Assembly: GCA_963976915.1 (NCBI GenBank) | Contig: CAXBNA010000040.1 | Coordinates: 1 to 34,465, forward strand | DNA: 34,465 nt | Source of the DNA: an uncultured Verrucomicrobiales bacterium | Lineage (GTDB): Bacteria; Verrucomicrobiota; Verrucomicrobiia; Verrucomicrobiales; Verrucomicrobiaceae | Direction of reading: 5' to 3' | In this document: one piece after another, positions 4,642 to 29,461 of the stretch | Position numbering within the stretch: the first letter of the stretch is position 1 | Layout: each line of letters starts with the position of its first letter | The notes under the pieces: generated by a model | Databases searched by the model: none | What the model was told of the DNA's origin: nothing | The model's input: the letters and a program-made list of their open reading frames with translations, nothing else | Made by a program: the position numbers and the translations under genes

Positions 4642-7600
4642 CTACTTTGTTGCTAACTCCGCCTCATAGAGCTCCCTCGTCTTTGCACGGAGGTCTTCGA
4701 CACTGAATTCGCCTTGGTCGACCTTGGCGAGGAGGGTGCGTTGGGCTTGGTAGTCGAGGTTTTCCTGGCCGGCTTTGCTTTGGAGCATGCGCCAGGCTTT
4801 GCGGCGTTCGACGGCGAAAAGGACCATCTGGCGACTGACGGCGTAGTGCTTCAGCTTGCCGTTCACCTCGGCCTTGATGAAGACGCCGAAGTCGGGGACG
4901 AAGGCGCGGTGCTTCGGATCGAAGATGCGGCGCTTGACGACGTCGTTCTGCGTGATGCAGACGAGGATGTCGTCGAGGTGCATCATGTCGGCGGTGTCTT
5001 CCTCGCTGATGGCCTTGAGGTGCTTGCGGAAGCGGGCCTCGGTGAGCGCCCAGTGGGCGACGGTGTAGTTGTACTTTTCCTTGTTGGAGTACGCGGCCTG
5101 CCACCAGTCGCGGTTGATGGTGGGGTTGCCCTTCACGTCGAGGCACTCCTGCGAGGTCTCGCCCTGCTGGGGATCGTAGATGAACTCGGGCATGCCGCGG
5201 CTGTCGCGCGAGAGCTTGGCCTGATGGGCGGACATGTTGTCGCCGACGCCGTGCTCGGGCTGGCAGGTGGTGTAGGCCTGGAAGAAGGCGGTGCCGCGAT
5301 ACTCGAGGCCGTCGAGCAGGGCCTTGTAAAGCTTGGCCGCGTTGGCGATCGAGACCTGGGCGACGAAGGGCGATCCGTGGCCGGCGGTCAGTGCTTCGGC
5401 GACGGATTTTTTCTCCGTCAGCTTGCCCTGGGAGGCGCGGCCGAACTGGTTCATGTCGTAACCACCGAGCATGGTGGAGCTGTCGCTGTTCTGGCCGCCG
5501 GTGTTCGAGTACACCTGCGTGTCGAGCATGATGGCCTTCACGTTGGGCCGGTTTTGCAGCATCACCTTGGAGAGGTTTTGGAAACCGATGTCGCCCAGCG
5601 CACCGTCGCCGCCGACGATCCACACCTTGGGCAGTTCACGGATCTCCTGGTCGGTCATCAGGGTCTCGGTGAGGTGGGTGAGATCCCAGTCGTCGATGCT
5701 GGAAAACTCGGCGGCGGAGTCTCCGAGCAGCACGTCGGCCAAACGTTCGGGGGCGACCGAGCGGCGCGCGTGGTTGAGCAGGAGGCTTTCGGCCAGCAGC
5801 CAGGAAATGGTGGAGCCATCCTGGAACAGGCTGTTCATCCACGGATACGGGTGCGGATTGGACGGCGGCGTGGAGCCATAGACCGTGTTGCAGCCGGTGG
5901 AGGCACCCATGGCCATCACGGACATGCCGTTGTCGAGGCGGCCATCGGTGGCCTGAAGCTTGAAGTGGTTGAAGGCGTCCTGATTCATCACGGCGCAGAG
6001 TCCGTCGATGAGTTCCTCATCGCTGATGGGACCGTGGTCGGCGATGCGCTTCTCGGTGTCGGCATCGTCCTCGCCGCCGAGTCCCATGACGATGTGGGCG
6101 AAGCTGCGCTTGAGGCGTTGGTAGGCTTCCGCGTCGGAGGCCTTGAGCGTCGCGAGCCGTTGCACGCCGTCCAACTTCAGGCGACCGGCCTTGTCGTAGA
6201 GGCGGTTGGCCTTGCTGTGATAGAGCGGGCGCATGTAGGCCTCGGTGACGGAGGCGATGGCGCGGAGGATGCTCTTTTCTCCGCACCCGGCGCAGGCACC
6301 ATCTCCGGAGACGAGGGCCTCGTAATTTCGGCGGACCATGAGGTGGTTCCGCAGCGCGGCGGGGCGACTGTCCTGCGGAGCGTCGTCGTCGTAGAGGCCG
6401 AGGTACTTCTGCGGGGTGTCGGGAAGGAGACGACCGAAGATCTGGGCGGAGGTGAGCTGGTAGTTCAGTTCCTCGGTGTCGGGCACCATGCGCAGCGCAT
6501 CGTGATCGCCGCACTGCTCGACGCACTCGCCGCAGCCTTTGCAGAGGTCGGAGACCTGGATCATGAAGACGCCTCCTTCGCCGGGGCTCTTTTTCTCGAT
6601 CGAGCGGAAGATGGCGGGGACGTTGCCATAGGCGATCGGCAGAAGATCCATGATGGCGTTGAGCTCGTCCTTGGCCTGCTGGCTGATGCCGTGGTTCAAA
6701 CCGGCGACCTGTTCGCGGACGATGTCCTTGAACGGCAGGCTCTCCTTGGCCGCCACGGCGGCGACCATTTTTTCACGGGCGCCGGCATCGATTTCGGGGA
6801 TGGCGGCGAGCAGCTTCTTCCGGTCGTCGGCAGCGCTAACGTAGTTCATCACCGCCGTTTTCAGGACGGTGGAAACATCCTGCGCGGTATTGGGCAGCGC
6901 GGTGTCGGGACAAGCGGTGATGCATTCCATGCACTGGGTGCAGTTTTCCGCGATGTACATGGGTGTCTCGCGACGGGCGACGTACTTCGACTGCGTGGCG
7001 CCCGTTCCGGCAGCCATGACGCCGACGGAGGCCAGCGCTCCAGCGGGCTGGTGGTAGCCGAGGCCGTGGCGGTATTCCCCGTCGAACTTGTCGAGCGTGA
7101 AGACGGGAGCTTTGGCCGGTTGATCGGGGTTGTGTGAAATGGCTTTCAGGGACGGTGCAAACACCCCTGCGGTGGGCAGGATGGGATGCGCGTCAACGGG
7201 CAAGACGGGATCGAGGCGCATGGAGGAACGGTCTTCGTCCTCGTCTTTGCCGTATTGAATCTCGACCAGGCGATTGAAGGCCTCGATCATGACCTTCATG
7301 TTCGATTCGACAACGGCGTCGCCGAAACGGCCGAACTTTTTCACATACTGCTTCCGCACGAGTTCCTCGAACTGATCGCGCGAGATGCCGTACTCCTGGA
7401 GGAAGGGCGACACGGCGAAGAAGGCACCGAGGAAGGCGTTGCCCTGCATGCGCAGTTGGAGATCGGGCCGCTCGGTGGCTTCCTTGGCGATGGCGAAGCC
7501 GGGGAGGAGGAAGACGCGGATGTGGTTGTCGCGGACAAACTGGCGGTACTTCTGCGGGATGCGTTTCCAGGCCGTCTCGGGATCGTCGCTGGATTCCCAG

Positions 7601-9462
7601 ACGAGGCAGCCGCCCTTGTTGATGCCGGCCAGCGGGTTGGTGTGGGTGAAGGCCTTGGGATCGCAGCAGAGCACGACGTCCACATGATTGAGCTCGCAAT
7701 TGACCCGCACGCGCTCGGGCGCGACGACGAGGTAGTAGTTGGTGGGCGATCCCTTTTTCTCCGACCCGTATTTCGGGTTGGCCATGATGTGGAGCTTCTG
7801 GATGAGCGCGCCGTCGCCATCGTATTTGGGATCCTGTTCGGAAATGAAATTGCCGAGGTCGCCGATGATGCTGCCAAGGTTCTTGCCGGTGGTGATCATG
7901 CCCCAGCCGCCGATGGAATGGAAGCGCACGGCGATGGCACCGCTTGGTAGAAGCGAGGGCGTGGTCTTGGAAATCACCGCATAAGGGTGATCGACACCGA
8001 GGACGAAGTAGGTCTCGCCGTCAGCGGCGCTTTTGCCGTCGGTGCGCTTCGTCATGCCGGTGGCGAATTCGTAGGCACCGAGGGTGTGCTCGGGACGGAA
8101 GTCGCGAGAGCCGAGGCCGTAGCTGCCGCGGAACAGGCGTGGGGTTTCCTCGGGCGTTAGCGCTGGGAGATCACCGCCGAACTTCGCGGCTTCGTTGGCC
8201 TTACCAAGCGCCACTCGGATGTCGCGTGAAAGCGGGTTGTCGCCCGCCATGCCTTCGTCCGTGCGCTCGATGACGATGACGTTCTTTTTGCCGCGAAGCG
8301 CCTCGATGACCGCCGCTTCCGGGAAGGGGCGGATGACGTTGATGTGGATGGAGCCGACCTTGGCGTTGCGTTGGTCGCGCAACCAGTCGCAGGCTTCCTC
8401 GATGTTCTCTGCCGCACATCCGAGCGAGACGAAGACCGTCTCCGCGTCCTCGCATTTGTATTCCGTGACGAAACCGTAGCGGCGGCCGGTGAGCTCACCG
8501 AATTCCCGGTAGGCGTCGGCGAGGAACCCGAGGATGGGCTCGTTGAAGTTGTTCCGGCGGGCGACCACACCATTCATGTGGTGCTCTTGATTCTGAACCG
8601 GGCCGAGCAGAATCGGATGCTTCAAGTCCATCATCTCAGGCAGGCGGCGGCGGGTGGGACCGAACAACTCCTTCTGGGCGGGCGTGGGGCAGTCGATGAT
8701 GTCGTTGGGCGCGCCAAGGAAGTGGCGTAGCAACTCGGCCTCGGGAGCGAGGTAGGCCCGTTCCGAGTGGGTGGTGAGCATGCCATCCTGCACGTTCATG
8801 CCCGGGTTCAGGGCCAGTTCGCAGACCTTCCGAAGGATGACCGCCTGATCGGCTGCCTGCTGGGCGTCTTTGGCAAAAAGGATGCTCCAGCCGGTGTCGA
8901 GCGCGGCATAGACGTCATCGTGGCCGCAGTGGACGTTGAGGGCGTGTTTGGTCAGCGCCCGGGCGCCGATCTCCAGCACCATGGTCGAGCACTTGCCCGG
9001 CGCGTGGTAGTACTGCTCCATCGCATAGACGATGCCCTGGCCGGAGGTGAAATTGACCGTGCGCTTGCCGGTGACGGCGAGGGCCGTGGCACCTCCTTGC
9101 GCCGCGTGCTCGCCCTCCGTCTCGATGGCAATCTTGCTGTTGCCCCAGACGTCCAGTTTGCCTTCGGCATAGGCGGCTTGATAAAGCTCGCCACCCTCGG
9201 TCGACGGCGTGATCGGATAAAACACACCGCCCTCGGTGATGCGCGCCTCGACATACTGGGCGACGAGTTGGTTGCCGTTGCATGTGACACGGACGCCGGG
9301 AAAGGGAACGTGCGATTCCTTTTGGGATGGCACGACATCAGCAGGTGGGATGGTTGCTTCCATAACGATCTGGGTTGAGCCGAGGCTCCAGGTTGGACGA
9401 TCATTACAGAAGACCGGCGATTGAAAGACAATCCCGGATTTCACCGCACAGCAGGTGCGCAC
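4642..9462 (-). CDS. por: Pyruvate:ferredoxin (flavodoxin) oxidoreductase, single-polypeptide PFOR/NifJ type.
   Basis: 1606-aa ORF. The N-terminal TPP/pyrimidine domain begins ...VTCNGNQLVAQYVEARITEGGVFYPITPSTEGGE. Two 4Fe-4S ferredoxin motifs are present: CTQCMECITACP and CKGCGECVEQC. The TPP-binding motif IVGGDGALGDIGFQNL...VYSNTGGQNS is present. The likely real start is the ATG at 9361-9363 (MEATIPP...); the listed 9462 start is a GTG/TTG extension. Confidence 0.9.
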   Translation of the reverse strand: MRTCCAVKSGIVFQSPVFCNDRPTWSLGSTQIVMEATIPPADVVPSQKESHVPFPGVRVTCNGNQLVAQYVEARITEGGVFYPITPSTEGGELYQAAYAEGKLDVWGNSKIAIETEGEHAAQGGATALAVTGKRTVNFTSGQGIVYAMEQYYHAPGKCSTMVLEIGARALTKHALNVHCGHDDVYAALDTGWSILFAKDAQQAADQAVILRKVCELALNPGMNVQDGMLTTHSERAYLAPEAELLRHFLGAPNDIIDCPTPAQKELFGPTRRRLPEMMDLKHPILLGPVQNQEHHMNGVVARRNNFNEPILGFLADAYREFGELTGRRYGFVTEYKCEDAETVFVSLGCAAENIEEACDWLRDQRNAKVGSIHINVIRPFPEAAVIEALRGKKNVIVIERTDEGMAGDNPLSRDIRVALGKANEAAKFGGDLPALTPEETPRLFRGSYGLGSRDFRPEHTLGAYEFATGMTKRTDGKSAADGETYFVLGVDHPYAVISKTTPSLLPSGAIAVRFHSIGGWGMITTGKNLGSIIGDLGNFISEQDPKYDGDGALIQKLHIMANPKYGSEKKGSPTNYYLVVAPERVRVNCELNHVDVVLCCDPKAFTHTNPLAGINKGGCLVWESSDDPETAWKRIPQKYRQFVRDNHIRVFLLPGFAIAKEATERPDLQLRMQGNAFLGAFFAVSPFLQEYGISRDQFEELVRKQYVKKFGRFGDAVVESNMKVMIEAFNRLVEIQYGKDEDEDRSSMRLDPVLPVDAHPILPTAGVFAPSLKAISHNPDQPAKAPVFTLDKFDGEYRHGLGYHQPAGALASVGVMAAGTGATQSKYVARRETPMYIAENCTQCMECITACPDTALPNTAQDVSTVLKTAVMNYVSAADDRKKLLAAIPEIDAGAREKMVAAVAAKESLPFKDIVREQVAGLNHGISQQAKDELNAIMDLLPIAYGNVPAIFRSIEKKSPGEGGVFMIQVSDLCKGCGECVEQCGDHDALRMVPDTEELNYQLTSAQIFGRLLPDTPQKYLGLYDDDAPQDSRPAALRNHLMVRRNYEALVSGDGACAGCGEKSILRAIASVTEAYMRPLYHSKANRLYDKAGRLKLDGVQRLATLKASDAEAYQRLKRSFAHIVMGLGGEDDADTEKRIADHGPISDEELIDGLCAVMNQDAFNHFKLQATDGRLDNGMSVMAMGASTGCNTVYGSTPPSNPHPYPWMNSLFQDGSTISWLLAESLLLNHARRSVAPERLADVLLGDSAAEFSSIDDWDLTHLTETLMTDQEIRELPKVWIVGGDGALGDIGFQNLSKVMLQNRPNVKAIMLDTQVYSNTGGQNSDSSTMLGGYDMNQFGRASQGKLTEKKSVAEALTAGHGSPFVAQVSIANAAKLYKALLDGLEYRGTAFFQAYTTCQPEHGVGDNMSAHQAKLSRDSRGMPEFIYDPQQGETSQECLDVKGNPTINRDWWQAAYSNKEKYNYTVAHWALTEARFRKHLKAISEEDTADMMHLDDILVCITQNDVVKRRIFDPKHRAFVPDFGVFIKAEVNGKLKHYAVSRQMVLFAVERRKAWRMLQSKAGQENLDYQAQRTLLAKVDQGEFSVEDLRAKTRELYEAELATK

Positions 9463-19620: not shown

Positions 19621-20301
19621 ATGATTGCCCTGTTTCAAGAAGCCATCGCCGCCTGCAACCTGCCGTTCACGGCACTGCTGGGCATGGTTCTATTTTATTG
19701 GTGCCTGGTGGGACTCGGTGCGTTGGATTTCGACATCGATGTCATTGACCTCGATTTTAGCGATGTCGGTGACTTGGGGGACACACCTGCCGGTCCGATC
19801 AACACGGGCGGCGCCTGGATCACCCTGGGAGGTGCGATTGGTTTCAACAGGGTGCCCATCGTCGTCTGGGCCACCTTTCTGGCGCTCTTCCTGTGGGCGG
19901 GGGCGATGCTGCTCAATCACACCTTCAATCCCACCAAGGCCATGCTGATGGCCGTACTGCTCGTGATCCCCAATCTGATCGGTTCACTGCTCGTGACGCG
20001 GGTGGTGGTGTGGCCCCTTGGGAAAGTCTTCACCGCGATGGCGGAAGCCCAAAGCGAGACGGAGAAAGTGGTCGGCCGGCAAGCCCTGGTGATCAGTGCC
20101 AAGGTGGACTCCACCTACGGGCAGGTCGAGATCGCAAACTCTGGTGCCCCGGTCCGCGTGAATGCACGAATTGTGGATGGTGCTTCTGCGCTTGGCAAAG
20201 GCACGCCGGTGCGCATCACCGCAGCAGGCCCGGATGCTCAGTACTATTTCGTCGAGCCAGTGGCTGCCGCCTCTATTCCAGCGACAACCGCTTCCGACTG
20301 A
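19621..20301 (+). CDS. yqiJ: YqiJ/NfeD-like membrane protein (DUF1449-type: N-terminal TM helices plus C-terminal OB-fold). This is the usual partner of flotillin YqiK.
   Basis: 226 aa with 3-4 TM segments, an acidic loop (DFDIDVIDLDFSDVGDLGD), and a C-terminal soluble region (QALVISAKVDSTYGQVEIANSGAPVRVNARIVDG..GTPVRITAAGPDAQYYFVEP) typical of the NfeD OB-fold. It ends 22 nt before the flotillin start. Confidence 0.7.
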   Translation: MIALFQEAIAACNLPFTALLGMVLFYWCLVGLGALDFDIDVIDLDFSDVGDLGDTPAGPINTGGAWITLGGAIGFNRVPIVVWATFLALFLWAGAMLLNHTFNPTKAMLMAVLLVIPNLIGSLLVTRVVVWPLGKVFTAMAEAQSETEKVVGRQALVISAKVDSTYGQVEIANSGAPVRVNARIVDGASALGKGTPVRITAAGPDAQYYFVEPVAAASIPATTASD

Positions 20302-20323
20302 ATCCCATCAACTCATCCCTACT

Positions 20324-22438
20324 ATGATCGACATCCCTCCCTCTCCACTTGCCTTTTTTGGCATCTTCGAAAGCCTCGGCATGGGGCTCGTAGCCACCTT
20401 GTTCACGCTTGGCTTTGGTCTCCTGATGTTCATCTTTGCGGCGTTTGCGCGCTTTTTCCGCAAAGTGCAGCAGGGGCAAGCCATCGTGAGAAACGGGATG
20501 GGCGGTACCCGGGTGACGTTCAACGGGATGATGGTCTACCCGGTCGTTCACCAGGCCGAGTACATGGATATCTCACTCAAAAGAGTCGAGATCGAGCGCC
20601 AGGGCGCAGAAGGCCTGATCTGTCAGGACAACATTCGAGCCGACATCAAAGTGGCTTTCTTTGTCCGTGTGAACAAGACGGAGGACGATGTGCTGCGGGT
20701 GGCTCAGACCGTGGGCACTCAGCGTGCATCGAGCGTCGATACGATGCGCACCCTGTTTGACGCCAAGTTTTCCGAGGCACTCAAAACGGTCGGCAAGCGT
20801 TTTGACTTCGTGCAGCTCTACAATGAGCGGGATCATTTCAAGGACGCGATCCTGAAGGTGATCGGCACCGACCTCAACGGCTTCACGCTGGACGACTGTG
20901 CCATCGACTTTCTGGAACAGACGGCGGTTGAGAATCTGGATCCGGACAACATTCTGGATGCGGAAGGGATCAAGAAAATCACCGAACTGACAGCTTCCCA
21001 AGCGAAGCTGTCGAACAACATCCAGCGGGACAAGGAGAAGGTCATCAAGAAGCAGGATGTGGAGGCCCGCGAGGCGATCCTCGAGCTGGAGCGCCAACTT
21101 TCCGAGACGGAAGCCAAGCAACTCCGCGATGTGGAGTCGGTCCAAGCGCGCGAACAAGCGGAGACGATCAAGGTGAAGGAAGAGGAGCGCATGAAGTCCG
21201 AGCGGGCACGCATCGCGACGGACGAAGACCTGGCTGTGGCGACGGAGAATATGGAGCGCCAGGTACTCGTGGCGCAGCGCAACAAGGAGCGCACAGACGC
21301 CATCGAGGTCGAGCGCGTTGAGCGGGATCGGATGCTGGAGCAGATCGAACGCGAGCGCGCCACGACGCTCAAGAGCATCGAGAAGGACAAGGCGGTCGAG
21401 ATCGAGCAAAAGAACATTCAGGAAGTCATCAAGGAGCGTGTGGCTCTGGAGAAGACCGTGGTGATCGAGCAGCAGAAGATCAAAGACACGGAGGCCTTCG
21501 CCACGGCGGATCGCGAGAAGCAGGTGGCTGTGACCTTGGCGGAAAAATCCGCTCAAGAAGTGGTCATTCAGAAGATCAAGGAGGCGGAAGCGCAGAAGCA
21601 GGCCGCGCAGTTCAAGGCGGAAGAGGACGCCTTCAATCAAACGAAGGCGGCGGAAGCCTCGAAGCAAGCTGCCGAACTGAGAGCGCAGGAGATGATCACG
21701 CTGGCGGAAGCTCGTCAGGATGCGGCGGCACGCGAATCGCAGGCCGAGAAACTCATGGCGGAAGCGGTGACGGCTCAAGCGGCAGCCCAGGGCCTGGGTC
21801 AGGCTCAGGTGCTCGTCGCCAATGCGGATGCCTCGCAGAAGCAGGGGCATGTCGATGCGGAGATTCTCCAGCTCAAGCTGGCGGCCGAAGCGGATGGCAT
21901 CCAGAAAAAGGCGGAAGCGATGAAGGTCCTCGAAGAGGCCGGGCGCGAGCACGAAGAGTTCAAGCTCCAGCTCGACAAGGAGAAAGAGATCGCCATCAAG
22001 CAGATCGACATCCAGAAGGACATCGCCACGCAGCAGGCCATCGTGCTCGGCGAGGCGCTCAAGAGTGCCAAGATCGAGATTGTGGGAGGCGAGAGCCAGT
22101 TCTTCGACAAGATCACTCAGGCGATTGGAAACGGTCGTGCGGTGGATCGTTTAGTCGCCAACAGCGAGGTGCTCAGCGATGTGAAGGAAACCTTCTTCAA
22201 TGGAGATCCCGATTACTTCAAAGGGCAGTTTCGCGGGCTGATGGACCAGTTCAGCTTCTCGACTGAGGACCTCAAAAACCTCACGGTTTCCGCCGTGCTG
22301 GGCAAGATGATGGGCCTCAATCCTGATGCCGGTCTCATGAGCAAGCTCCAGGGCATGATGGGCGCGGCCAACCGCTTCGGTCTGGGTGACAAGCCAGCCG
22401 ACGCATTGATCGCGGCCGTTGCCAAAGGGAAGAAGTGA
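20324..22438 (+). CDS. yqiK: Flotillin-family SPFH/Band-7 protein (YqiK-like), long form with an extended E/A/K-rich coiled coil.
   Basis: 704 aa. N-terminal TM region, then an SPFH domain: AIVRNGMGGTRVTFNGMMVYPVVHQAEYMDISLKRVEIER...ADIKVAFFVRVNKTEDDVLRVAQTVG. This aligns by eye to E. coli YqiK (AFVRTGLGGQKVVMSGGAIVMPIFH...LKLEVSR...VDVVVAFFVRVKP). A long EA-repeat (flotillin) region follows. Start set to the ATG at 20324 (MIDIPP). Confidence 0.9.
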   Translation: MIDIPPSPLAFFGIFESLGMGLVATLFTLGFGLLMFIFAAFARFFRKVQQGQAIVRNGMGGTRVTFNGMMVYPVVHQAEYMDISLKRVEIERQGAEGLICQDNIRADIKVAFFVRVNKTEDDVLRVAQTVGTQRASSVDTMRTLFDAKFSEALKTVGKRFDFVQLYNERDHFKDAILKVIGTDLNGFTLDDCAIDFLEQTAVENLDPDNILDAEGIKKITELTASQAKLSNNIQRDKEKVIKKQDVEAREAILELERQLSETEAKQLRDVESVQAREQAETIKVKEEERMKSERARIATDEDLAVATENMERQVLVAQRNKERTDAIEVERVERDRMLEQIERERATTLKSIEKDKAVEIEQKNIQEVIKERVALEKTVVIEQQKIKDTEAFATADREKQVAVTLAEKSAQEVVIQKIKEAEAQKQAAQFKAEEDAFNQTKAAEASKQAAELRAQEMITLAEARQDAAARESQAEKLMAEAVTAQAAAQGLGQAQVLVANADASQKQGHVDAEILQLKLAAEADGIQKKAEAMKVLEEAGREHEEFKLQLDKEKEIAIKQIDIQKDIATQQAIVLGEALKSAKIEIVGGESQFFDKITQAIGNGRAVDRLVANSEVLSDVKETFFNGDPDYFKGQFRGLMDQFSFSTEDLKNLTVSAVLGKMMGLNPDAGLMSKLQGMMGAANRFGLGDKPADALIAAVAKGKK

Positions 22439-22510
22439 CCTGAGCCATTCCTGACGTCCTGTTCTGATTCCGACCTGACTTCTCGGGTATCGGGATCGGG
22501 ACGAGGATGA

Positions 22511-25500
22511 ATGAGGAACCCGAATCCGATGTCCGATACCCCGCCATCCGCCCAACTCGAAGCCGGTGCTTACGAGGTCATCCGCAAGCGCCTCGATGCG
22601 CAGGGCGAGGATCTGCGTTCGCGGCTGGATCAGCTCAACGAGGCGCGGAAGTCGATCTTCGGCGGGGTGGAGACGCAGCTGCTCTCCACGGCGCGGCTGA
22701 CGACGGAGCACAACTGCGTGCCGCGTGACATGGCGACGATTGGGGCCAAGCGGTTCGTGTTTGGCTACAATGTCACGTTGGGGCTGAAGAGTCACCTTGC
22801 GGCGGAGGATGTTTTTTCGACCTACGACTACGATCCCTCGGACCACAGCTTCCACGCCAACAAGGACGGCTTGCTGGAGGACAAGCGTTTTGTCGAGGAC
22901 TTTGACTACCTCTACAAGTACTACAAGAACGCCTTCTTCCTGCGGTTTCATCGCAGCGGGCATGCGGTGTATTTCGTCTTCCAAGTCGGGCGGGATGTGG
23001 GCGAGGTGAAGGCCTTTAAGTGGCTGCTGGACAAAGATGCAGGGACGCTGCGCTACGAAGGCAATCGCTTCGATCATGAGATCGCCATGCCGGATCCACA
23101 CGAGTTTGTGTGGCGAAAGGCGACGCATGACATGTATCGCCACGGCACGTATCCGCATGTGTCCATCGAGGATCGTGTGTTTGTGGAGACGGTGGGCGGG
23201 GATCTGACGGTGAAGGTGGAGGACAACACGGCCTCGGGTGCCGGGATCTACTCCGAGCCGGTGGAGAACGGAGACCAGATCCTCGACGATGCGCAGATCC
23301 AATACGCGATTGTTGGCAATCTGATTCTACTGAAGGTGCTGCCCTACCAGGAGAAGCAGTGGCGGCATCTGGTCTTCAATGAACGCACGCAGGACGTGGT
23401 GAGGATCGACGCCCTCGAGGAGTCCTGCCAGCTTTTGCCTGATGATCATGGCATTGTGTTTCCGCGCGGCTACGTGTTGCAAACCGGCGGAATGAAGGTG
23501 CTGGACACCGGGCTGCCCGAGATGCAGTTCGAGCGAAAGGTGACCTCGGCCAATGGGGAGGACACGCTCTATGTCTTCCATCACATCGAGACGGGCACCT
23601 ACCTCTTGCTCTCCTACAATTTGGTGGAGCAGGAGATGGCAGCGCCGACGATCAGCCATGGCTTTGCGATGTTTCCGAATGGTGAGCTGATCGTTCTGAA
23701 TGCCGAGGAAGAGGCGCGGAAGCATCACTCGATTCAAGTCTGGCAAACACCGTTTGTCGCGGAGCAGCAGGCGGTCGATGAACATCGCGACAGCTTGTTG
23801 GGCAAGCTCGGGAATGCGGAGATCGTGCGCTGCATGGCGGAGTGCCGTGGCATCCTGACCTTGCTGGGGAAAGAAGACAGCTACTCGGGATTGTACGTGG
23901 AGCTGGTCCGTCAAGCGGGCGACATCGCCGACACGTATTTCTGGCTGGACAAGGCGGAAGCCCATGGCCTGCGGGGCACGCTGACGAAGATCAAGGACGC
24001 TGCAGAAGCGGCGCTGGGTGAGTTTGAAAAGGTGCGTCGTCTCCGGGCGGCGGCCAAGACGGAGGTCGCATCATTGACGGAGGCCGCGAACAAGGCGGTG
24101 CGTGAGGCCGAGAGCGCGAGCTTTGATGACGTGCAGAGTTTTGTGAAGTCGCTCGCCACCTTGCGTGAGCTTCGCGGCCGGATCATCGCTGCCCAGGAGA
24201 TCCGGTACATCGATGAAGAAGCGCTGAAGGCGTTGGATGCAAAGGTGGCGGAAGCGGCGGAACTGGTGGGCGGTCGTTGCACGGAGTTTTTGCTGCTGCC
24301 TGAGGCGCTGGCACCCTACGATCAGGCCGTTACCAAGCAGCGGGCGGCTTTGGAGAAAGTGGCCAAGGTCACGGAGGCGGAGGAACTGGACGCGCAACTG
24401 CGGTCAACGAGTGAGGAACTGGAACTCCTGATCAGCGTGGTGAGTTCTCTCAAAATCCGTGATGCGACCGAGACGACTCGGATCACGGAAAGCATCTCCG
24501 GCCAGTTTGCGCAGCTCAATCAGGTGCGCTCTCGGGTGAAGGCGCGGCGTGATGAGTTGGCGCAGACGGAGGGTGAGTCTGAGTTTTACGCGCAGCTCAA
24601 TTTGCTGAAGCAGGTGGTGATCAATCAGGTCGAACTCTGCGATACGGCAGAGAAATGCGATGATGCCCTGACGCGGACGCTGGTGCGGATCGAGGAACTG
24701 GAGGGACGCTTTGGAGACTTTGAGGGATTTGCGGAGGAACTGATTCGTCGACGTGAGGAAACGCAATCGGCGTTTGATGCACGCCGACAGCAACTCGTCG
24801 AGACGCGGAATCGCCGCACTCAGGCTCTGGTCCAGGCGGCGGACCGGGTGCTGGCGAGCATTCGCAATCGTCTGAACACTCTGGCCACGCCGGAGGAGGT
24901 GCACTCGTATTTGGCCTCGGCTGCGATGGCGGCGAAGGCGCGGGATTTGATCGCCGATCTTCGGGACCTTGGCGACCCGGTGCGTGCGGATGAGATTCAG
25001 ACACGGCTGAAGACCCTGAGCGAGGGAGCGGTGAAGCAGATTCGCGACAAGGCGGATCTGTTTGTGGAAGGCGGCGACGTCATCAAGCTCGGGCCTCATG
25101 CCTTTTCAGTGAATCGGCAACCGCTGGATCTGACGCTGGTGCAACGGGAAGGGGCGTTGTTTTTCCATCTCACTGGAACGCGCTATTCGGAAGCAGTCCA
25201 GGATGAGGTGCTGGAGCAGCTGCGCCCGGTGTGGCCTTTGGAATCCAGTGCGGAGTCGCCGGGGGTCTATCGCGGCGAGTATCTTGCTCATATTTGGGTG
25301 GCGCATCTGGCGACCCAAGGGCAGGAGGCCTTGGACGCTTTTGTGGCGCAGGATGTCGAGGCGAGGCAGGGTGTGATTCGGGATTTCATGGCGGAGCGGT
25401 TTGCCGAAGGCTACACGAAAGGCGTTCATGATCATGATGCGGCCCGCATCGCTCTGCCTCTGGCGGAGCTTCGCGGGCGATTGGGACGCCTTCGTCACGC

Positions 25501-27664
25501 GCCTGTGGTTCGTGGCTGGGCATTGCTGCTTTGGAAACTGGTTCCCGAGGGCCCCAAGAAGAACGCGATGGCTGCGCGGTTGCAGGGGCAGGGAAGCCGG
25601 TCTCTGGTTTTTGGGGTGGCGGCCCATTCCGACGCAGGTGATCCGCGATTGCGGGCATTGCTCGAACGGGTTGTGGCCGATGCGCAGGTTTCGATGCCGG
25701 AGGAGGTCTCGCTGGCCGTGGTGGCTGCCTGTCTCACCGACGAATTGCAGGGACTCACCAGCAAGCATTCCGAACTGCCTCTGACGCGGTCTGCGGAGGC
25801 CTCGGAGCTTGCGCGAAGCTTTGGGAAGTTGCTGACCGCGAAACGGGCGGCGACGGAGTTTCATGAACTGCGTCAGCGCTTAGAAGAAGATCCCGTGGCG
25901 GAGTTTGAGCTGATTTTGGATTGGCTCGACGCGGCTCATCCCGAGGCGGGCGAAAGCATTCGCTCCGAGGCTGCGGGTCTGCTCATTTATGGAGAAGTCT
26001 CGGCTCATGGTGTGGAGGAGGTCGTGACTCAGGTCGAGATTGAAGGTCTTGTGGGCGCCCATTCGCAGATCGAGGGTGGAAAGCTCCGGCTGGACTACCA
26101 CGAGTTTCAGTCGCGTCTGCAGCATCATGAGCGGGAGATTGTTCCTCAGTTCCGGGCGATGCAGGATCGGAAGCATGCGCTGATTCAGAAACGCAGGGCG
26201 GAGCTGAGGTTGGAAGAGTTTCGTCCCGGGATGCTGAGTTCGTTCGTGCGAAATCGGCTCATCGATCAGGTCTATCTGCCGATCATCGGAGCGAATTTGG
26301 CAAAGCAACTCGGAGGGGTGGGGGCGGATACGCGCACGGACCGGATGGGCATGTTGATGCTGATTTCACCACCAGGATACGGGAAGACGACGTTGATCGA
26401 GTATGTGGCGAATCGCCTGGGCATGGCGATGGTGAAGATCAATGGGCCGGCCATCGGGCATCAGGTCACCTCGCTAGATCCGGCCGAAGCTCCCAACGCA
26501 AGTGCACGTCAGGAAATCGAGAAGCTCAATCTGGCCTTCGAGATGGGCGACAACGTGATGATCTACCTGGATGACATCCAGCACTGCAATGCTGAGCTTC
26601 TTCAGAAATTCATCCCGCTCTGCGATGGACAGCGCCGCATTGAGGGGGTGTTTCAGGGCGATGCCCGGACCTATGATCTTCGGGGCCGGAAGGTGGCTGT
26701 CGTGATGGCGGGGAACCCGTATACCGAGGTCGGCGGAAAATTCCAAGTGCCAGACATGCTGGCCAACCGAGCAGATACTTACAATCTGGGCGACATCCTC
26801 GGTGGTCACGACCATGACTTCAAGGCGAGCTACATTGAGAACTGCCTGACGAGCAATCGCTCACTTTCACGGATCGCAGCTCGCAGTCACAAGGACACAT
26901 TGGCGGTGATGAAAATCGCAGAGACAGGAAATCGCGAGGGCATTGAGTTTGAGGCCAATCACCAGGCCGACGAGATGGAGGAAGCCATCGCGGTTATGGG
27001 GCATCTGTTGCGCGTTCGGGAGGTCATTTTGCGAGTGAATCAGGAGTACATCCGTTCCGCAGCCACTGAGGAGGCGTTCCGCACAGAGCCGGCATTCAAG
27101 CTTCAGGGGTCCTACCGCAACATGAATCGACTCGCGGAAAAGGTGCAGCCACTGATGACGGCAGACGAGATCGAATCGTTGATCGAAGACCACTATCGCA
27201 GCGAGTCACAGACGCTGAGCAAAGCCTCGGAAGCCAACCTTCTGAAGTGGAAAGAACTGACCGGAAAGCTCTCTGAACCTGAAGCGGCGCGATGGGGCGA
27301 CATTCGCAAGACCTTCAGCCGGAATCTTCTCACTGGCGGTGGCGGAGACAATGATCCAGTGACGCGGATCGGCGGGTTCATGAATGCGTTTACGGTCGGG
27401 CTTGAGCGGATCGAGTCCACCCTCGAGAAAGCGCGAATGGATAGGGCTGCTCCAGCCACGCTCGCGGACGTCACGGTGGAGAAACTGGAGTCGATCATCG
27501 CGAGCCTGCGGGCAGTGCCAGTCAATGTGGAGATCAAGGTGCAGCCGGTGGAGCAGAGCTTGGGTCCAGCAGGTCCTGCCAACGATGGGCTTCCTGTCGA
27601 AGTCGAGTCCGGGGTGGTTCAGCCGGTTGACCCCAAGGTCACGCCCTCAAAGAAGAAAAAGTGA
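22511..27664 (+). CDS. Giant (1717 aa) multidomain protein with a MoxR/AAA_5-type P-loop ATPase module near the C-terminus. The rest of the protein cannot be assigned to a family.
   Basis: Continuous ORF. The ATG at 22511 is preceded by gaggatga (SD-like). Walker A MLISPPGYGKTTLIEY (GYGKTT = 26375-26392, ~aa 1289). Walker B NVMIYLDDIQHC (DD = 26570-26575). Sensor-1 region KVAVVMAGNPYTE, then QVPDMLANRADTYNL (MoxR-like NP...LPEA.LDRF pattern). N-terminal ~470 aa look globular and aromatic-rich. Residues ~480-900 are alpha-helical, EARL-rich and coiled-coil-like. The C-terminus ends in a Lys tail, PSKKKK. No TM helices are evident. Confidence 0.85.
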   Translation: MRNPNPMSDTPPSAQLEAGAYEVIRKRLDAQGEDLRSRLDQLNEARKSIFGGVETQLLSTARLTTEHNCVPRDMATIGAKRFVFGYNVTLGLKSHLAAEDVFSTYDYDPSDHSFHANKDGLLEDKRFVEDFDYLYKYYKNAFFLRFHRSGHAVYFVFQVGRDVGEVKAFKWLLDKDAGTLRYEGNRFDHEIAMPDPHEFVWRKATHDMYRHGTYPHVSIEDRVFVETVGGDLTVKVEDNTASGAGIYSEPVENGDQILDDAQIQYAIVGNLILLKVLPYQEKQWRHLVFNERTQDVVRIDALEESCQLLPDDHGIVFPRGYVLQTGGMKVLDTGLPEMQFERKVTSANGEDTLYVFHHIETGTYLLLSYNLVEQEMAAPTISHGFAMFPNGELIVLNAEEEARKHHSIQVWQTPFVAEQQAVDEHRDSLLGKLGNAEIVRCMAECRGILTLLGKEDSYSGLYVELVRQAGDIADTYFWLDKAEAHGLRGTLTKIKDAAEAALGEFEKVRRLRAAAKTEVASLTEAANKAVREAESASFDDVQSFVKSLATLRELRGRIIAAQEIRYIDEEALKALDAKVAEAAELVGGRCTEFLLLPEALAPYDQAVTKQRAALEKVAKVTEAEELDAQLRSTSEELELLISVVSSLKIRDATETTRITESISGQFAQLNQVRSRVKARRDELAQTEGESEFYAQLNLLKQVVINQVELCDTAEKCDDALTRTLVRIEELEGRFGDFEGFAEELIRRREETQSAFDARRQQLVETRNRRTQALVQAADRVLASIRNRLNTLATPEEVHSYLASAAMAAKARDLIADLRDLGDPVRADEIQTRLKTLSEGAVKQIRDKADLFVEGGDVIKLGPHAFSVNRQPLDLTLVQREGALFFHLTGTRYSEAVQDEVLEQLRPVWPLESSAESPGVYRGEYLAHIWVAHLATQGQEALDAFVAQDVEARQGVIRDFMAERFAEGYTKGVHDHDAARIALPLAELRGRLGRLRHAPVVRGWALLLWKLVPEGPKKNAMAARLQGQGSRSLVFGVAAHSDAGDPRLRALLERVVADAQVSMPEEVSLAVVAACLTDELQGLTSKHSELPLTRSAEASELARSFGKLLTAKRAATEFHELRQRLEEDPVAEFELILDWLDAAHPEAGESIRSEAAGLLIYGEVSAHGVEEVVTQVEIEGLVGAHSQIEGGKLRLDYHEFQSRLQHHEREIVPQFRAMQDRKHALIQKRRAELRLEEFRPGMLSSFVRNRLIDQVYLPIIGANLAKQLGGVGADTRTDRMGMLMLISPPGYGKTTLIEYVANRLGMAMVKINGPAIGHQVTSLDPAEAPNASARQEIEKLNLAFEMGDNVMIYLDDIQHCNAELLQKFIPLCDGQRRIEGVFQGDARTYDLRGRKVAVVMAGNPYTEVGGKFQVPDMLANRADTYNLGDILGGHDHDFKASYIENCLTSNRSLSRIAARSHKDTLAVMKIAETGNREGIEFEANHQADEMEEAIAVMGHLLRVREVILRVNQEYIRSAATEEAFRTEPAFKLQGSYRNMNRLAEKVQPLMTADEIESLIEDHYRSESQTLSKASEANLLKWKELTGKLSEPEAARWGDIRKTFSRNLLTGGGGDNDPVTRIGGFMNAFTVGLERIESTLEKARMDRAAPATLADVTVEKLESIIASLRAVPVNVEIKVQPVEQSLGPAGPANDGLPVEVESGVVQPVDPKVTPSKKKK

Positions 27665-27735: not shown

Positions 27736-28479
27736 ATGAGAATTGTGCTCCTGATCGGCCTCCTCGTGCTTCCAATCCTCGCTGAGGCTCAGGTGGAGAC
27801 GGCGCATCACCGCGCCGTTTACAAGGAAATCAACGACCGCGAAGAATCGTTTCGAAAGGTGACGGGAACGTTCGAGGATGAGCCGACCGTTTTTGCGCTG
27901 ACGGGTTGGTTTGACGGGCGGGAGCTGAAGAAAATCGTGGCTCGGTCTGGCGATGACGGCGGGGGCTTTGACGAGTACTATTTTGAGAACGAGCGACCAC
28001 TCTTCGTTTTCAGCACTTACGAAAAAGGGGCGACGGGCGAGCGCGTGGAAAATCGACTGTACTTCAAAGATGGGTCGATCTTCAAGTGGCTGACCACGGA
28101 CAAGGCCGTCGGTGCCCTTCATTCAGAAGACTATCAATCCGAGACCGAGCGGCTGAATGCAAACTGCGCCGCCTTTGTGGCAGCGTTGACGGGGAAGCCT
28201 GTCCCCAAGGTGACGTCCAAAGTCACCTTGGGTGTTTTTCTTGGGATCGAGGAAGGCGATTACTTTCACTGGATGATGCGGTCTGCGGGTGGCGAGGAGA
28301 CGTCCTTCTTCATTCTTCATCCAGATCCAGCCGTGGAGCGGGTTCTCGATGACCCAGACACATTTTTCGGCAGAACCTGCAAGGTGACGTGGAAGACATC
28401 CAAACAAAACATTCCTGAAGCTGCCGGCACCATGGAGCTGGATCAAATCTTGAGCGTCGAGTGGTCGACGGAGAAGTAG
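27736..28479 (+). CDS. Secreted hypothetical protein (247 aa) with an N-terminal signal peptide.
   Basis: MRIVLLIGLLVLPILAEAQ signal peptide. Protein-like composition. 72 nt downstream of the giant ATPase gene on the same strand. GTGAGG lies 3 nt before the ATG. Confidence 0.6.
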   Translation: MRIVLLIGLLVLPILAEAQVETAHHRAVYKEINDREESFRKVTGTFEDEPTVFALTGWFDGRELKKIVARSGDDGGGFDEYYFENERPLFVFSTYEKGATGERVENRLYFKDGSIFKWLTTDKAVGALHSEDYQSETERLNANCAAFVAALTGKPVPKVTSKVTLGVFLGIEEGDYFHWMMRSAGGEETSFFILHPDPAVERVLDDPDTFFGRTCKVTWKTSKQNIPEAAGTMELDQILSVEWSTEK

Positions 28480-28762
28480 CGCCGCGTTCGAGTTTGAACC
28501 AATCTGACACAGTCATGAGGAGCCAAAAACAAAACAACCGGTCGCCACGGCCATTCAAAAACCAGTCCTCTGGACGTGATTGGTCAGGCAACAGGGAAGG
28601 GGGAGGGTTCATTCCAGGCGCCAAAAAGACTCGGCCTGTAAAGAAGTTGGACCCTCCGAAGCCCTCCGAGCGTGGTCAGAATTCCGACGGGGCTTGTGCG
28701 GAGAGCTAGGCGATTCGTGATAGAGGTGGCATGGCTTGGCGTTCGAAGTCCACCCCCTCTTC

Positions 28763-29461
28763 ATGAACCCCGTTGCTGCCATCTTTGCCCTCCTGCTGGC
28801 CTCGTCTTGGACTCAAGCCGGGGAGGTTCCCGTGGGTGATCCTGACCTCCCGCATCCTTTGGATCTGAGCTTCGTGGAGAGCTTGGTCGCGGCCTCACCC
28901 TTCACCCGGACCGTGAGTCTGGAAGACTCATTTCAACTGACTGGGATTGCCTTCTTTGACGGGCATCCGGTCGCTACGATTCTGAACCGGGAGACCCAGG
29001 AACGATTTGTGGTCTCTGAAGAACCGAACGCTCAGGGTTGGACCCTCGTGGCAGCGACCACAGGCGCGAACATTGGAAGCTCAAGGGTGGAGATGCGGGT
29101 TGGCACTGAGGCGCTGACCTTGCACTACGGTGGGCAGCAGTTGTCGCCCGGACCTGATGGCAAGGCTGGATCGAAGAAGATGTATGCCTCATCGAAAAAG
29201 TCTGGCGGCAAGACGCATCCCTCTTCGTTTCTTGGAGATGGAGGACGGGAACGGTACGAGTCCCTCTCATCCGAGGGACGGAGCCACTTCAAGGAGCTGG
29301 TCCGGGCGCATATGGAAAAGCACCCGGAACTCAGTCCTGAACAGTCTGCGGACTACGCCCGAAAGGTTTTTGCGAAGATTCAGAGCGCGGATGTCTCCAA
29401 TTCCGGGGATGGCCCAGCACCTTCCAAGGCATCGAAACCCCCGAAGAAGAGGCAGGCGTAG
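28763..29461 (+). CDS. Secreted hypothetical protein (~232 aa) with a signal peptide and a Lys/Ser-rich low-complexity C-terminal half.
   Basis: Start set to ATG 28763 (MNPVAAIFALLLASSWTQAGE). The track ORF starts at 28736. The C-terminal part (KKMYASSKKSGGKTHPSS...PSKASKPPKKRQA) is basic and disordered. Confidence 0.5.
   Translation: MNPVAAIFALLLASSWTQAGEVPVGDPDLPHPLDLSFVESLVAASPFTRTVSLEDSFQLTGIAFFDGHPVATILNRETQERFVVSEEPNAQGWTLVAATTGANIGSSRVEMRVGTEALTLHYGGQQLSPGPDGKAGSKKMYASSKKSGGKTHPSSFLGDGGRERYESLSSEGRSHFKELVRAHMEKHPELSPEQSADYARKVFAKIQSADVSNSGDGPAPSKASKPPKKRQA

What the first reader, a model, noticed from the sequence alone, without database searches (positions are those of the whole stretch)
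19621..27664. Flotillin operon that encodes its own giant AAA+ ATPase (YqiJ/NfeD-like -> YqiK-like flotillin -> 1717-aa MoxR-type ATPase)
Three co-directional genes are separated by 22 nt and 72 nt with no intervening terminator. From the sequence: the first is an NfeD/YqiJ-type membrane protein with an OB-fold, the second is a long flotillin, and the third is a 1717-aa protein with intact Walker A (GYGKTT), Walker B (IYLDDIQ) and a MoxR-like sensor region (MAGNPYTE...VPDMLANRAD). Established knowledge: SPFH proteins pair with NfeD partners, and known SPFH scaffolds organise AAA+ machines (HflK/C with FtsH; B. subtilis flotillins with FtsH). I do not know of any described system in which a flotillin operon carries a dedicated giant non-protease AAA+ ATPase. 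Inference: this may be an SPFH-microdomain-scaffolded ATPase machine of unknown function (membrane remodelling, export or defence). The giant protein has no TM segments, so flotillin/NfeD would be its membrane anchor.
Basis: partly seen in the sequence, partly recalled or inferred. Interest (0 to 1): 0.85.

Follow-up and report, generated by a model that had tools for sequence, protein, structure and literature searches.

The report
Flotillin operon with giant AAA+ ATPase
The three genes are real and almost always travel together in many bacterial phyla, but this flotillin plus giant ATPase module was already described by comparative genomics in 2020/2024, so this is an ordinary member of a known module whose function has not been tested.

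Summary
Three co-directional genes sit at 19621-27664, 22 nt and 72 nt apart. They encode a 3-TM YqiJ-like protein, a 704-aa YqiK-type flotillin, and a 1717-aa soluble protein with a beta-propeller (Pfam DUF3686), a coiled coil (DUF7902) and one AAA+ module.

The linkage is not chance. A flotillin homologue lies directly upstream on the same strand in 66 of 69 homologous loci with enough upstream sequence. These loci come from Verrucomicrobiota, Planctomycetota, Bacteroidota, Desulfobacterota, Clostridia, Kiritimatiellota, Actinomycetota, Deinococcota and Gammaproteobacteria.

The novelty claim fails. Ravi et al. (mSystems 2024; bioRxiv 2020) describe exactly this operon: YqiJ/YuaF, then Band-7/flotillin, then "beta-propeller + coiled-coil + AAA-ATPase". 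It is often preceded by CesT/Tir-PspA. I recovered that longer form in 13 Bacteroidota loci and on Pseudomonas plasmid pQBR103. The window holds the abbreviated form, without PspA.

"MoxR-type" is not specifically supported. The Walker B motif is DD, no MoxR model matches, and the best matches are RuvB, Clp and NorQ without a clear clade.

The most likely role is inferred, not shown: a flotillin-docked, ATP-driven remodeller of sub-membrane scaffolds (flotillin and/or PspA) in envelope stress. I found no experimental work on it.

The parts
19621..20301 (+). YqiJ/YuaF-like 3-TM inner-membrane protein (226 aa), first gene of the module
   Evidence: Pfam YqiJ_N 23.8 bits, cut-off 23. Hydrophobic segments at about aa 14-37, 77-99 and 105-133. 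BLASTP to E. coli YqiJ E=0.002. A homologue lies upstream of the flotillin in 53 of 61 loci. The C-terminal OB/NfeD domain was not confirmed.
20302..20323 (+). 22-nt intergenic gap between the YqiJ-like gene and the flotillin gene
   Evidence: Sequence read directly. No terminator-like site.
20324..22438 (+). YqiK-type flotillin (704 aa): N-terminal TM region, SPFH domain, long coiled coil, conserved C-terminal region
   Evidence: BLASTP to E. coli YqiK E=4e-45. Homologues are named 'flotillin family protein' or YqiK by NCBI and JGI. TM region at aa 9-45. Residues 520-660 are conserved among ATPase-linked flotillins but align poorly to E. coli YqiK.
20462..21010 (+). SPFH/Band-7 domain of the flotillin (aa 47-229)
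   Evidence: Pfam Band_7 40 bits, E=5.7e-10, when aa 1-259 are scanned alone.
22439..22510 (+). 72-nt intergenic gap between the flotillin and ATPase genes (90 nt if the ATPase starts at 22529)
   Evidence: Sequence. No terminator-like site. The median gap in homologous loci is 150 nt.
22511..27664 (+). Giant soluble beta-propeller / coiled-coil / AAA+ ATPase (1717 aa; 1711 aa from 22529). DUF3686 family, named 'DNA repair ATPase' by NCBI
   Evidence: Pfam hits. A 100%-identical 1711-aa protein is in public data. No TM segment.
22610..23941 (+). DUF3686 domain (aa 34-477): beta-propeller-like, flanked by helices
24302..24556 (+). DUF7902 (aa 598-682) within the long helical middle region
   Evidence: Pfam 83.7 bits and 85.3 bits on the fragment.
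26318..27220 (+). Single AAA+ module (about aa 1270-1570). Walker A is at 26366-26392, Walker B (DD) at 26561-26584, the predicted pre-sensor-1 hairpin at 26633-26689, sensor 1 at 26699-26728, the Arg-finger region at 26747-26776, and the conserved motif RTEPAFKLQGSYRNMNR at 27080-27130.
   Evidence: Pfam AAA 31.4 bits and AAA_5 26.2 bits. Invariant residues across 22 diverse homologues. Model and secondary structure. Fold matches to RuvB, Clp, NorQ and p97. Coordinates.

Best explanation
This is the abbreviated (PspA-less) form of a conserved bacterial three-gene module. The genes encode a YqiJ/YuaF-type 3-TM protein, a YqiK-type flotillin (TM + SPFH + coiled coil), and a soluble giant protein made of a beta-propeller, a long coiled coil and one AAA+ module.

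Shown here:
- The identity of the three proteins.
- Fixed order and strand across nine phyla or classes.
- Correlated divergence of the flotillin and the ATPase.
- Recurrent fusion of the module to a CesT/Tir-PspA (bacterial ESCRT-III) operon.

Inferred:
- The flotillin and YqiJ-like proteins form an oligomeric scaffold on the cytoplasmic face of the inner membrane.
- The TM-less ATPase docks onto that scaffold, plausibly through its propeller and coiled coil.
- It uses ATP to assemble, remodel or dismantle sub-membrane polymers (flotillin itself and/or PspA, which may be encoded elsewhere) during envelope stress. This would be analogous to Vps4 acting on ESCRT-III.

The database name 'DNA repair ATPase' has no support in these data.
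For: Protein identities.

Conservation:
- There are 1288 clusters at 50% identity.
- Among the 80 best loci, 61 of 64 with at least 2.5 kb upstream have the flotillin directly upstream on the same strand, and 53 of 61 have the YqiJ-like gene.
- Five more loci show the same arrangement: Streptomyces, Deinococcus, Pseudomonas pQBR103, Vibrio and Proteus.
- Spearman rho between ATPase and flotillin identity is 0.61, p=2e-7.

PSP link:
- In 13 Bacteroidota loci, PspA (Pfam 140 bits), CesT_Tir_1 (189 bits) and a divergent HTH gene precede the triad.
- pQBR103 has YjfI-PspA-...-glutathionylspermidine synthase-hypothetical-SPFH-ATPase.

Literature:
- The same operon and the membrane-dynamics proposal are in Ravi et al. 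2024 (PMC11237479).
- A B. subtilis SPFH protein has been reported to link PspA to the membrane (Scholz et al. 2021, as cited in PMC7619361).

ATPase motifs: Walker A, sensor 1 and the Arg finger are invariant in 22 diverse homologues.
Against: - No physical interaction, localisation or phenotype data exist for any member that I could find.
- The window's 34 kb contains no PspA or CesT.
- Three of 69 loci lack an adjacent flotillin.
- E. coli yqiJK has no such ATPase gene next to it.
- Walker B is an invariant DD instead of DE. From memory, this is seen in slowly hydrolysing or oligomerisation-only AAA domains such as NSF-D2, so the protein might act as a nucleotide-dependent switch rather than a motor.
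- Cotranscription is inferred only from spacing and the absence of a terminator consensus.
Confidence: 0.6

Rival explanations
1. It is a DNA repair ATPase, as the Pfam and NCBI names say, and acts on DNA; the flotillin neighbourhood is incidental to its function.
For: Pfam calls DUF3686 'ATPase involved in DNA repair' and NCBI names homologues 'DNA repair ATPase'. The weak best matches of the P-loop region by sequence and fold are RuvB.
Against: - The RuvB similarity covers only about 45 residues around Walker A, at 20-23 bits against cut-offs of 282-299, and is generic AAA+.
- No DNA-binding or nuclease domain was detected.
- The only conserved neighbours in 69 loci are flotillin, YqiJ, PspA, CesT and an HTH gene; no repair gene recurs.
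- I found no paper supporting the name.
Confidence: 0.04
2. It is an anti-phage or mobile-element defence module, in which an SPFH-anchored NTPase senses infection and triggers membrane damage or abortive infection.
For: - Some copies lie on large plasmids; 13 PLSDB records match, several of which are really chromosomes or chromids.
- Transposase-like and toxin-antitoxin-like ORFs are inserted between the flotillin and the ATPase in a few loci.
- There are weak PADLOC matches: mad8 at 17.8 bits and LmuB at 13.7 bits.
Against: - The PADLOC matches are marginal and cover the generic P-loop or coiled coil; the flotillin and YqiJ-like proteins have none.
- There is no match in 50,697 phage records.
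- The window's flanks are housekeeping genes: RsgA, methyltransferases, PFOR, phosphate and bicarbonate transporters, sulfatase.
- No effector domain (nuclease, TIR, protease and so on) is present in the triad.
- Vertical-looking conservation across whole phyla is unlike typical patchy defence islands.
Confidence: 0.06
3. The ATPase is a MoxR-type chaperone, that matures or inserts a specific client complex, with the flotillin serving only as a raft platform.
For: The post-sensor-1 sequence NPYTE..GGKF.VPDMLANR resembles the MoxR/AAA_5 signature (sequence; the resemblance is judged from memory). AAA_5 scores 26.2 bits against a cut-off of 22. NorQ and CbbQ appear among the fold matches.
Against: - No MoxR model (AAA_3) is among the Pfam hits, and generic AAA scores higher.
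- Walker B is LDDIQH, not DEINR.
- The model shows no helix-2 hairpin insert.
- No VWA-domain partner is conserved nearby.
- RuvB and Clp rank above NorQ.
Confidence: 0.1
4. The genes are only neighbours in this genome and are functionally independent.
For: There are no transcript data. The 72-90 nt gap could hold a promoter.
Against: Sixty-six of 69 loci from nine phyla or classes keep the same order and strand, and sequence divergence is correlated.
Confidence: 0.02

Closest known systems
CesT/Tir-PspA-YqiJ/YuaF-Band-7/flotillin-(beta-propeller + coiled-coil + AAA+) operon and its abbreviated forms (Ravi et al., mSystems 2024, PMC11237479; Table S3 row ANH61663.1, Dokdonia donghaensis)
   Same: The three proteins, domain architectures, order and strand are the same. 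I recovered the long form, with PspA and CesT_Tir_1, in Bacteroidota homologues of this very ATPase. This shows that the paper's 'novel AAA+ ATPase' is the DUF3686 family.
   Different: The window lacks the CesT/Tir-PspA dyad, the divergent HTH gene and phospholipase D, so it is the abbreviated form the paper says is widespread. The paper gives no experiment. The function is a proposal.
E. coli yqiJ-yqiK and B. subtilis yuaF(nfeD2)-floT(yuaG)
   Same: Both are two-gene units of a YqiJ/NfeD-type membrane protein followed by a flotillin. The flotillin is 29% identical to YqiK over 468 aa, and E. coli also has a short gap between the two genes.
   Different: E. coli has no ATPase gene downstream; sibD/ibsD follow instead. 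The window's flotillin is 150 aa longer. Its C-terminal region gives no Pfam Flot hit, while YqiK gives 139.8 bits.
HflK/C-FtsH
   Same: An SPFH assembly working with an AAA+ machine at the inner membrane (PMC13220708 abstract).
   Different: From established knowledge, FtsH is itself membrane-anchored, carries a zinc protease domain and is not encoded with hflKC. Here the AAA+ protein is soluble, has no peptidase domain and is operon-linked.
Vps4 / ESCRT-III (CdvC/CdvB) and PspF/PspA
   Same: This is a functional analogy only: an AAA+ ATPase genetically coupled to a membrane-remodelling polymer. PspA co-occurs with the triad in several lineages.
   Different: There is no MIT domain and no Vps4 or NtrC-type AAA+ signature. 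The 2025 review PMC7619361 states that a Vps4-like ATPase appears absent in bacteria.
MoxR / AAA_5 (RavA, CbbQ, NorQ) ATPases
   Same: The AAA+ core has a predicted pre-sensor-1 hairpin, and the motif after sensor 1 is similar.
   Different: See the membership test: Walker B, the helix-2 insert, the VWA partner and the family HMM are all unmet or inconclusive.

Membership tests
YqiJ/YuaF-flotillin-propeller/coiled-coil/AAA+ operon (Ravi et al. 2024) | Multi-TM YqiJ/YuaF-type protein encoded first | tested here: met
   YqiJ_N 23.8 bits, just above the cut-off of 23. Three hydrophobic segments. Homologues are in the same position in 53 of 61 loci.
YqiJ/YuaF-flotillin-propeller/coiled-coil/AAA+ operon (Ravi et al. 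2024) | [quoted passage not shown] | tested here: met
   TM region at aa 9-45. Band_7 40 bits on aa 1-259. YqiK homology E=4e-45 through the coiled coil. The Pfam Flot C-terminal domain itself was not detected at E<=1, so that sub-feature is inconclusive.
YqiJ/YuaF-flotillin-propeller/coiled-coil/AAA+ operon (Ravi et al. 2024) | AAA+ ATPase with N-terminal beta-propeller repeats and coiled coil encoded third | tested here: met
   The model of aa 7-510 has pLDDT 88, and its Foldseek top hits are all propellers. There is a helical middle region with DUF7902 and a C-terminal AAA module.
YqiJ/YuaF-flotillin-propeller/coiled-coil/AAA+ operon (Ravi et al. 2024) | Homologues of this ATPase sit in the published long operon with CesT/Tir and PspA | tested here: met
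   Thirteen Bacteroidota loci carry HTH (divergent), CesT_Tir_1, PspA, YqiJ, flotillin and ATPase. This matches Table S3. The window itself has the abbreviated form, with no PspA or CesT in 34 kb.
Pfam DUF3686 (PF12458) / DUF7902 (PF25472) | Score above the gathering threshold | tested here: met
   582.6 bits against 25, and 83.7 bits against 26.
SPFH/Band-7 superfamily, flotillin (YqiK) branch | SPFH domain plus significant full-length similarity to a named flotillin | tested here: met
NfeD family | C-terminal OB-fold partner-binding domain (PF01957 or YqiJ_OB PF07290) | tested here: inconclusive
   NfeD 12.5 bits against a cut-off of 29.1, and no YqiJ_OB hit. E. coli YqiJ as a control gives YqiJ_OB 54 bits. 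No structure was predicted for this protein.
MoxR AAA+ family | Match to the MoxR model (AAA_3) or the DE-I-N-R Walker B signature | tested here: not met
   AAA_3 is not among the six Pfam families matched at E<=0.01. Walker B reads YLDDIQH, and DD is invariant. The MoxR signature itself is recalled from memory.
MoxR AAA+ family | Helix-2 insert | tested here: inconclusive
   The model shows a loop and no hairpin between beta2 and alpha2, but the model is of medium confidence, pLDDT 74.
MoxR AAA+ family | Conserved VWA-domain partner gene | tested here: not met
   The only conserved neighbours are flotillin, YqiJ, PspA, CesT and HTH.
HflK/C-FtsH-type SPFH-protease pair | AAA+ partner carries TM anchors and a peptidase domain | tested here: not met
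   No TM segment and no peptidase family hit.
Known anti-phage defence systems (PADLOC v2) | Significant match of the components to a defence-system model | tested here: not met
   Only mad8 at 17.8 bits and LmuB at 13.7 bits for the ATPase. Nothing for the other two proteins.

The most novel reading that the evidence does not exclude
The beta-propeller/coiled-coil/AAA+ protein is a dedicated ATP-driven assembly or disassembly factor for bacterial flotillin (SPFH) cages, and where PspA is present it couples them to ESCRT-III-like polymers. That would make it the missing 'Vps4-like' energy source for bacterial sub-membrane scaffolds. No experiment has addressed this. The conserved, Pfam-Flot-negative C-terminal region of the ATPase-linked flotillins (aa 520-660) would be the docking site.
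Probability: 0.3. Interest if true: 0.7.

Novelty: new member of a known kind. Interest (0 to 1): 0.35.

Why it matters
How bacterial flotillin and PspA scaffolds are assembled, turned over and energised is an open question. A 2025 review notes that bacteria seem to lack a Vps4-like ATPase and that Band-7 partners of PspA have undetermined roles (PMC7619361).

This module is widespread. At least 585 species genomes carry it, and its gene order holds in about 96% of the loci examined. It is therefore a good experimental entry point, and tractable hosts carry it: Pseudomonas pQBR103, Proteus, Vibrio and Streptomyces.

As a discovery, however, it is not new. The association is published, the families are in Pfam, and the window's proteins are already in public databases.

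The value added here is:
- a quantified neighbourhood statistic;
- the identification of the paper's 'novel AAA+' as DUF3686;
- the lack of support for the 'DNA repair' and 'MoxR' labels;
- the invariant DD Walker B.

Tried and rejected
- Pfam and NCBIfam scans of the full-length flotillin returned nothing even at E<=10, which briefly suggested it was not an SPFH protein. Scanning only aa 1-259 gave Band_7 at 40 bits. The negative is probably a filtering artefact caused by the long coiled coil.
- PDB sequence searches gave nothing for the flotillin and only generic P-loop matches for the ATPase.
- Fold search of the AAA module did not resolve its clade.
- The downstream ORFs 27736-28479 and 28736-29461 were tested as candidate PspA or CesT partners. 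They are signal-peptide or secreted-looking proteins without Pfam hits and are not conserved next to the triad.
- ORFs inserted between the flotillin and the ATPase in 18 loci were checked for a hidden fourth component. They are heterogeneous: transposase-like, toxin-antitoxin-like and lipoproteins.
- The three loci without a flotillin showed no alternative conserved partner.
- Literature searches for DUF3686, PF12458, 'DNA repair ATPase' + flotillin, and YqiK + YqiJ + ATPase found no papers.
- The defence hypothesis was tested with PADLOC and the phage collection and rejected.

Full report
**1. Observation**

The window carries three co-directional + strand ORFs: 19621-20301 (226 aa), 20324-22438 (704 aa, inside a longer ORF that opens at 20162) and 22511-27664 (1717 aa). 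The gaps are 22 nt and 72 nt. Public gene calls for the identical contig start the third gene at 22529, giving 1711 aa. That contig is a 281-kb TARA Oceans metagenome scaffold, and the closest named relatives are Verrucomicrobiales. A consensus scan finds no terminator-like hairpin in either gap.

**2. What the three proteins are**

Gene 1:
- It reaches Pfam YqiJ_N just above threshold, 23.8 bits against 23.
- It has three hydrophobic segments.
- It aligns weakly with E. coli YqiJ, E=0.002.
- The claimed OB-fold could not be confirmed by profile search. NfeD scores 12.5 bits against 29.1 and there is no YqiJ_OB hit, while the E. coli control gives 54 bits.

Gene 2:
- It gave no Pfam hit at all as a full-length query, and all 120 listed homologues also lack precomputed Pfam domains.
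- It is nevertheless 29% identical to E. coli YqiK over 468 residues, E=4e-45.
- Its first 259 residues alone score 40 bits on Band_7/SPFH.
- It has an N-terminal TM region.
- It is therefore a YqiK-type flotillin. The full-length negative is most likely a filtering artefact of the long coiled coil.
- Its C-terminal 250 residues do not match Pfam Flot, unlike YqiK. Residues 520-660 are nonetheless conserved among the ATPase-linked flotillins of many phyla.

Gene 3:
- It matches DUF3686 at 582.6 bits (aa 34-477), DUF7902 at 83.7 bits (aa 598-682), and AAA and AAA_5 near aa 1283-1405.
- It has no TM-like segment.
- A model of aa 1181-1717 (pLDDT 74) shows one AAA+ core with a predicted beta-hairpin before the sensor-1 strand.
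- Fold matches are RuvB (E=1.5e-6), ClpA/B, NorQ/CbbQ and p97, with no clear winner.
- In 22 diverse homologues the Walker A lysine, sensor-1 Asn and Arg-finger Arg are invariant, and Walker B is an invariant Asp-Asp rather than Asp-Glu.

**3. Is the linkage real?**

The ATPase family is large. It has 1288 clusters at 50% identity in a 1.84-billion-protein library.

I took the 80 best loci, from Verrucomicrobiota, Planctomycetota, Bacteroidota, Desulfobacterota, Clostridia and Kiritimatiellota. I located homologues of the window's flotillin and YqiJ-like proteins by tblastn and by clustering all ORFs.
- Of 64 loci with at least 2.5 kb of upstream sequence, 61 have the flotillin immediately upstream on the same strand.
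- Of 61 loci with at least 3.5 kb upstream, 53 have the YqiJ-like gene before the flotillin.
- Five more distant loci show the same order: Streptomyces, Deinococcus, Pseudomonas plasmid pQBR103, Vibrio campbellii and Proteus mirabilis, at 37-41% ATPase identity. The total is 66 of 69.
- Flotillin and ATPase identities to the window proteins are correlated, rho 0.61, p=2e-7.
- The median flotillin-ATPase gap is 150 nt. Where the gap is large, the inserted ORFs are heterogeneous.

**4. Is it new?**

No. Ravi et al. (mSystems 2024, PMC11237479; also held as bioRxiv 10.1101/2020.09.24.301986) describe an operon that combines CesT/Tir-PspA with three further components. [quoted passage not shown] I verified that this is the same ATPase family. 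In 13 Bacteroidota homologue loci the triad is preceded by PspA (PF04012, 140 bits), CesT_Tir_1 (189 bits) and a divergent HTH gene. On pQBR103 it follows a YjfI-PspA-...-glutathionylspermidine synthase operon.

The window has the abbreviated form. No PspA or CesT is detectable in its 34 kb, and the two downstream ORFs are unrelated secreted-looking proteins.

**5. Mechanism**

Shown: the three protein identities, the fixed order, correlated divergence, and recurrent coupling to PspA.

Inferred: the flotillin and YqiJ-like proteins form a scaffold on the cytoplasmic face of the inner membrane. The TM-less ATPase is recruited to it, probably through its propeller and coiled coil. It then uses ATP to assemble, remodel or dismantle flotillin and/or PspA polymers under envelope stress.

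This is the reading Ravi et al. proposed. It fits a report that a B. subtilis SPFH protein links PspA to the membrane (cited in PMC7619361).

The invariant DD Walker B is a caveat. It may mean slow hydrolysis or a switch-like role; this point rests on my memory of NSF-D2 and was not tested.

I found no experimental study of any family member.

**6. Rivals**

- 'DNA repair ATPase', the database name. It has no support. The RuvB similarity is a roughly 45-residue P-loop match far below threshold. No DNA-related domain is present, and no repair gene is a conserved neighbour.
- Anti-phage defence. There are only marginal PADLOC scores and no phage matches. The flanks are housekeeping genes, and no effector domain is present.
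- MoxR-type chaperone. The motif after sensor 1 is reminiscent and AAA_5 passes threshold. However, no MoxR model matches, Walker B differs, no VWA partner is conserved, and RuvB and Clp rank above NorQ.
- Coincidental neighbours. This is excluded by the conservation.

**7. Verdict**

The locus is a real, strongly conserved and experimentally uncharacterised module. It is already described in the literature and represented in Pfam, and this locus is an ordinary member in its abbreviated form.

Interest is moderate to low as a discovery (0.35). The open mechanistic question, whether this is the ATP-driven remodeller of bacterial flotillin/PspA scaffolds, would be of real interest if shown.

Noticed in passing
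window 20324-22438: The full-length flotillin gives no Pfam hit even at E<=10, and all 120 close homologues have no precomputed Pfam domain. The first 259 residues alone score 40 bits on Band_7. This is probably a bias or composition filter effect of the long coiled coil, and it means the subfamily is systematically under-annotated.
   Followed up: yes
window 26561-26584 (ATPase aa 1351-1358): The Walker B motif is YLDDIQH. The Asp-Asp pair is invariant in 22 diverse homologues, in place of the usual Asp-Glu. This may indicate slow hydrolysis or a switch-like role.
   Followed up: partly
window 27080-27130 (ATPase aa 1524-1540): The motif RTEPAFKLQGSYRNMNR, about 100 residues after the Arg finger, has many invariant residues across phyla. 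It lies in a loop-rich part of the model, and its role is unknown.
   Followed up: no
window 21884-22303 (flotillin aa 520-660): This C-terminal region is conserved among ATPase-linked flotillins from many phyla, with about 0.7 column identity. It aligns poorly to E. coli YqiK and does not match Pfam Flot. It is a candidate ATPase-docking module.
   Followed up: partly
window 21001-22000: There is a strong AT skew (+0.40) in this kilobase. It coincides with the Glu/Lys/Ala/Gln-rich coiled-coil coding region of the flotillin, so it is a codon-composition effect.
   Followed up: partly
window 4642-9462 (- strand): A 1605-aa pyruvate:ferredoxin oxidoreductase-like ORF has POR_N, PFOR_II, POR, 4Fe-4S and TPP_enzyme_C domains. 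From memory, it is several hundred residues longer than typical single-chain PFORs.
   Followed up: no
window 27736-28479 and 28736-29461: Two downstream + strand ORFs (247 and about 232 aa) have hydrophobic, signal-peptide-like N-termini and no Pfam hit. They are not conserved next to the triad in other genomes.
   Followed up: partly
L083 (Pseudomonas fluorescens SBW25 plasmid pQBR103, 84452-105524): On this well-studied megaplasmid the triad sits directly behind a YjfI-PspA-rhomboid-DUF2491-DUF350-DUF1190-glutathionylspermidine synthase operon. This joins the two PspA operon classes of Ravi et al. in one array, in a tractable experimental host.
   Followed up: partly
L005, L010, L024 (between the flotillin and ATPase genes): In some genomes, transposase-like ORFs (L010, L024) and toxin-antitoxin-like ORFs (L005) are inserted between the flotillin and the ATPase without breaking the order. 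The labels are judged from the sequence starts only.
   Followed up: no
L026, L050, L056: In three loci the ATPase homologue has no flotillin or YqiJ gene within 7-10 kb upstream. No alternative conserved partner was seen.
   Followed up: partly
window 22511 vs 22529: There are two in-frame ATG starts, 18 nt apart. Public annotation uses the second. A GAGGA sequence lies 3 nt before the first ATG, and a GAGGAA about 10 nt before the second, so the true start is uncertain.
   Followed up: no
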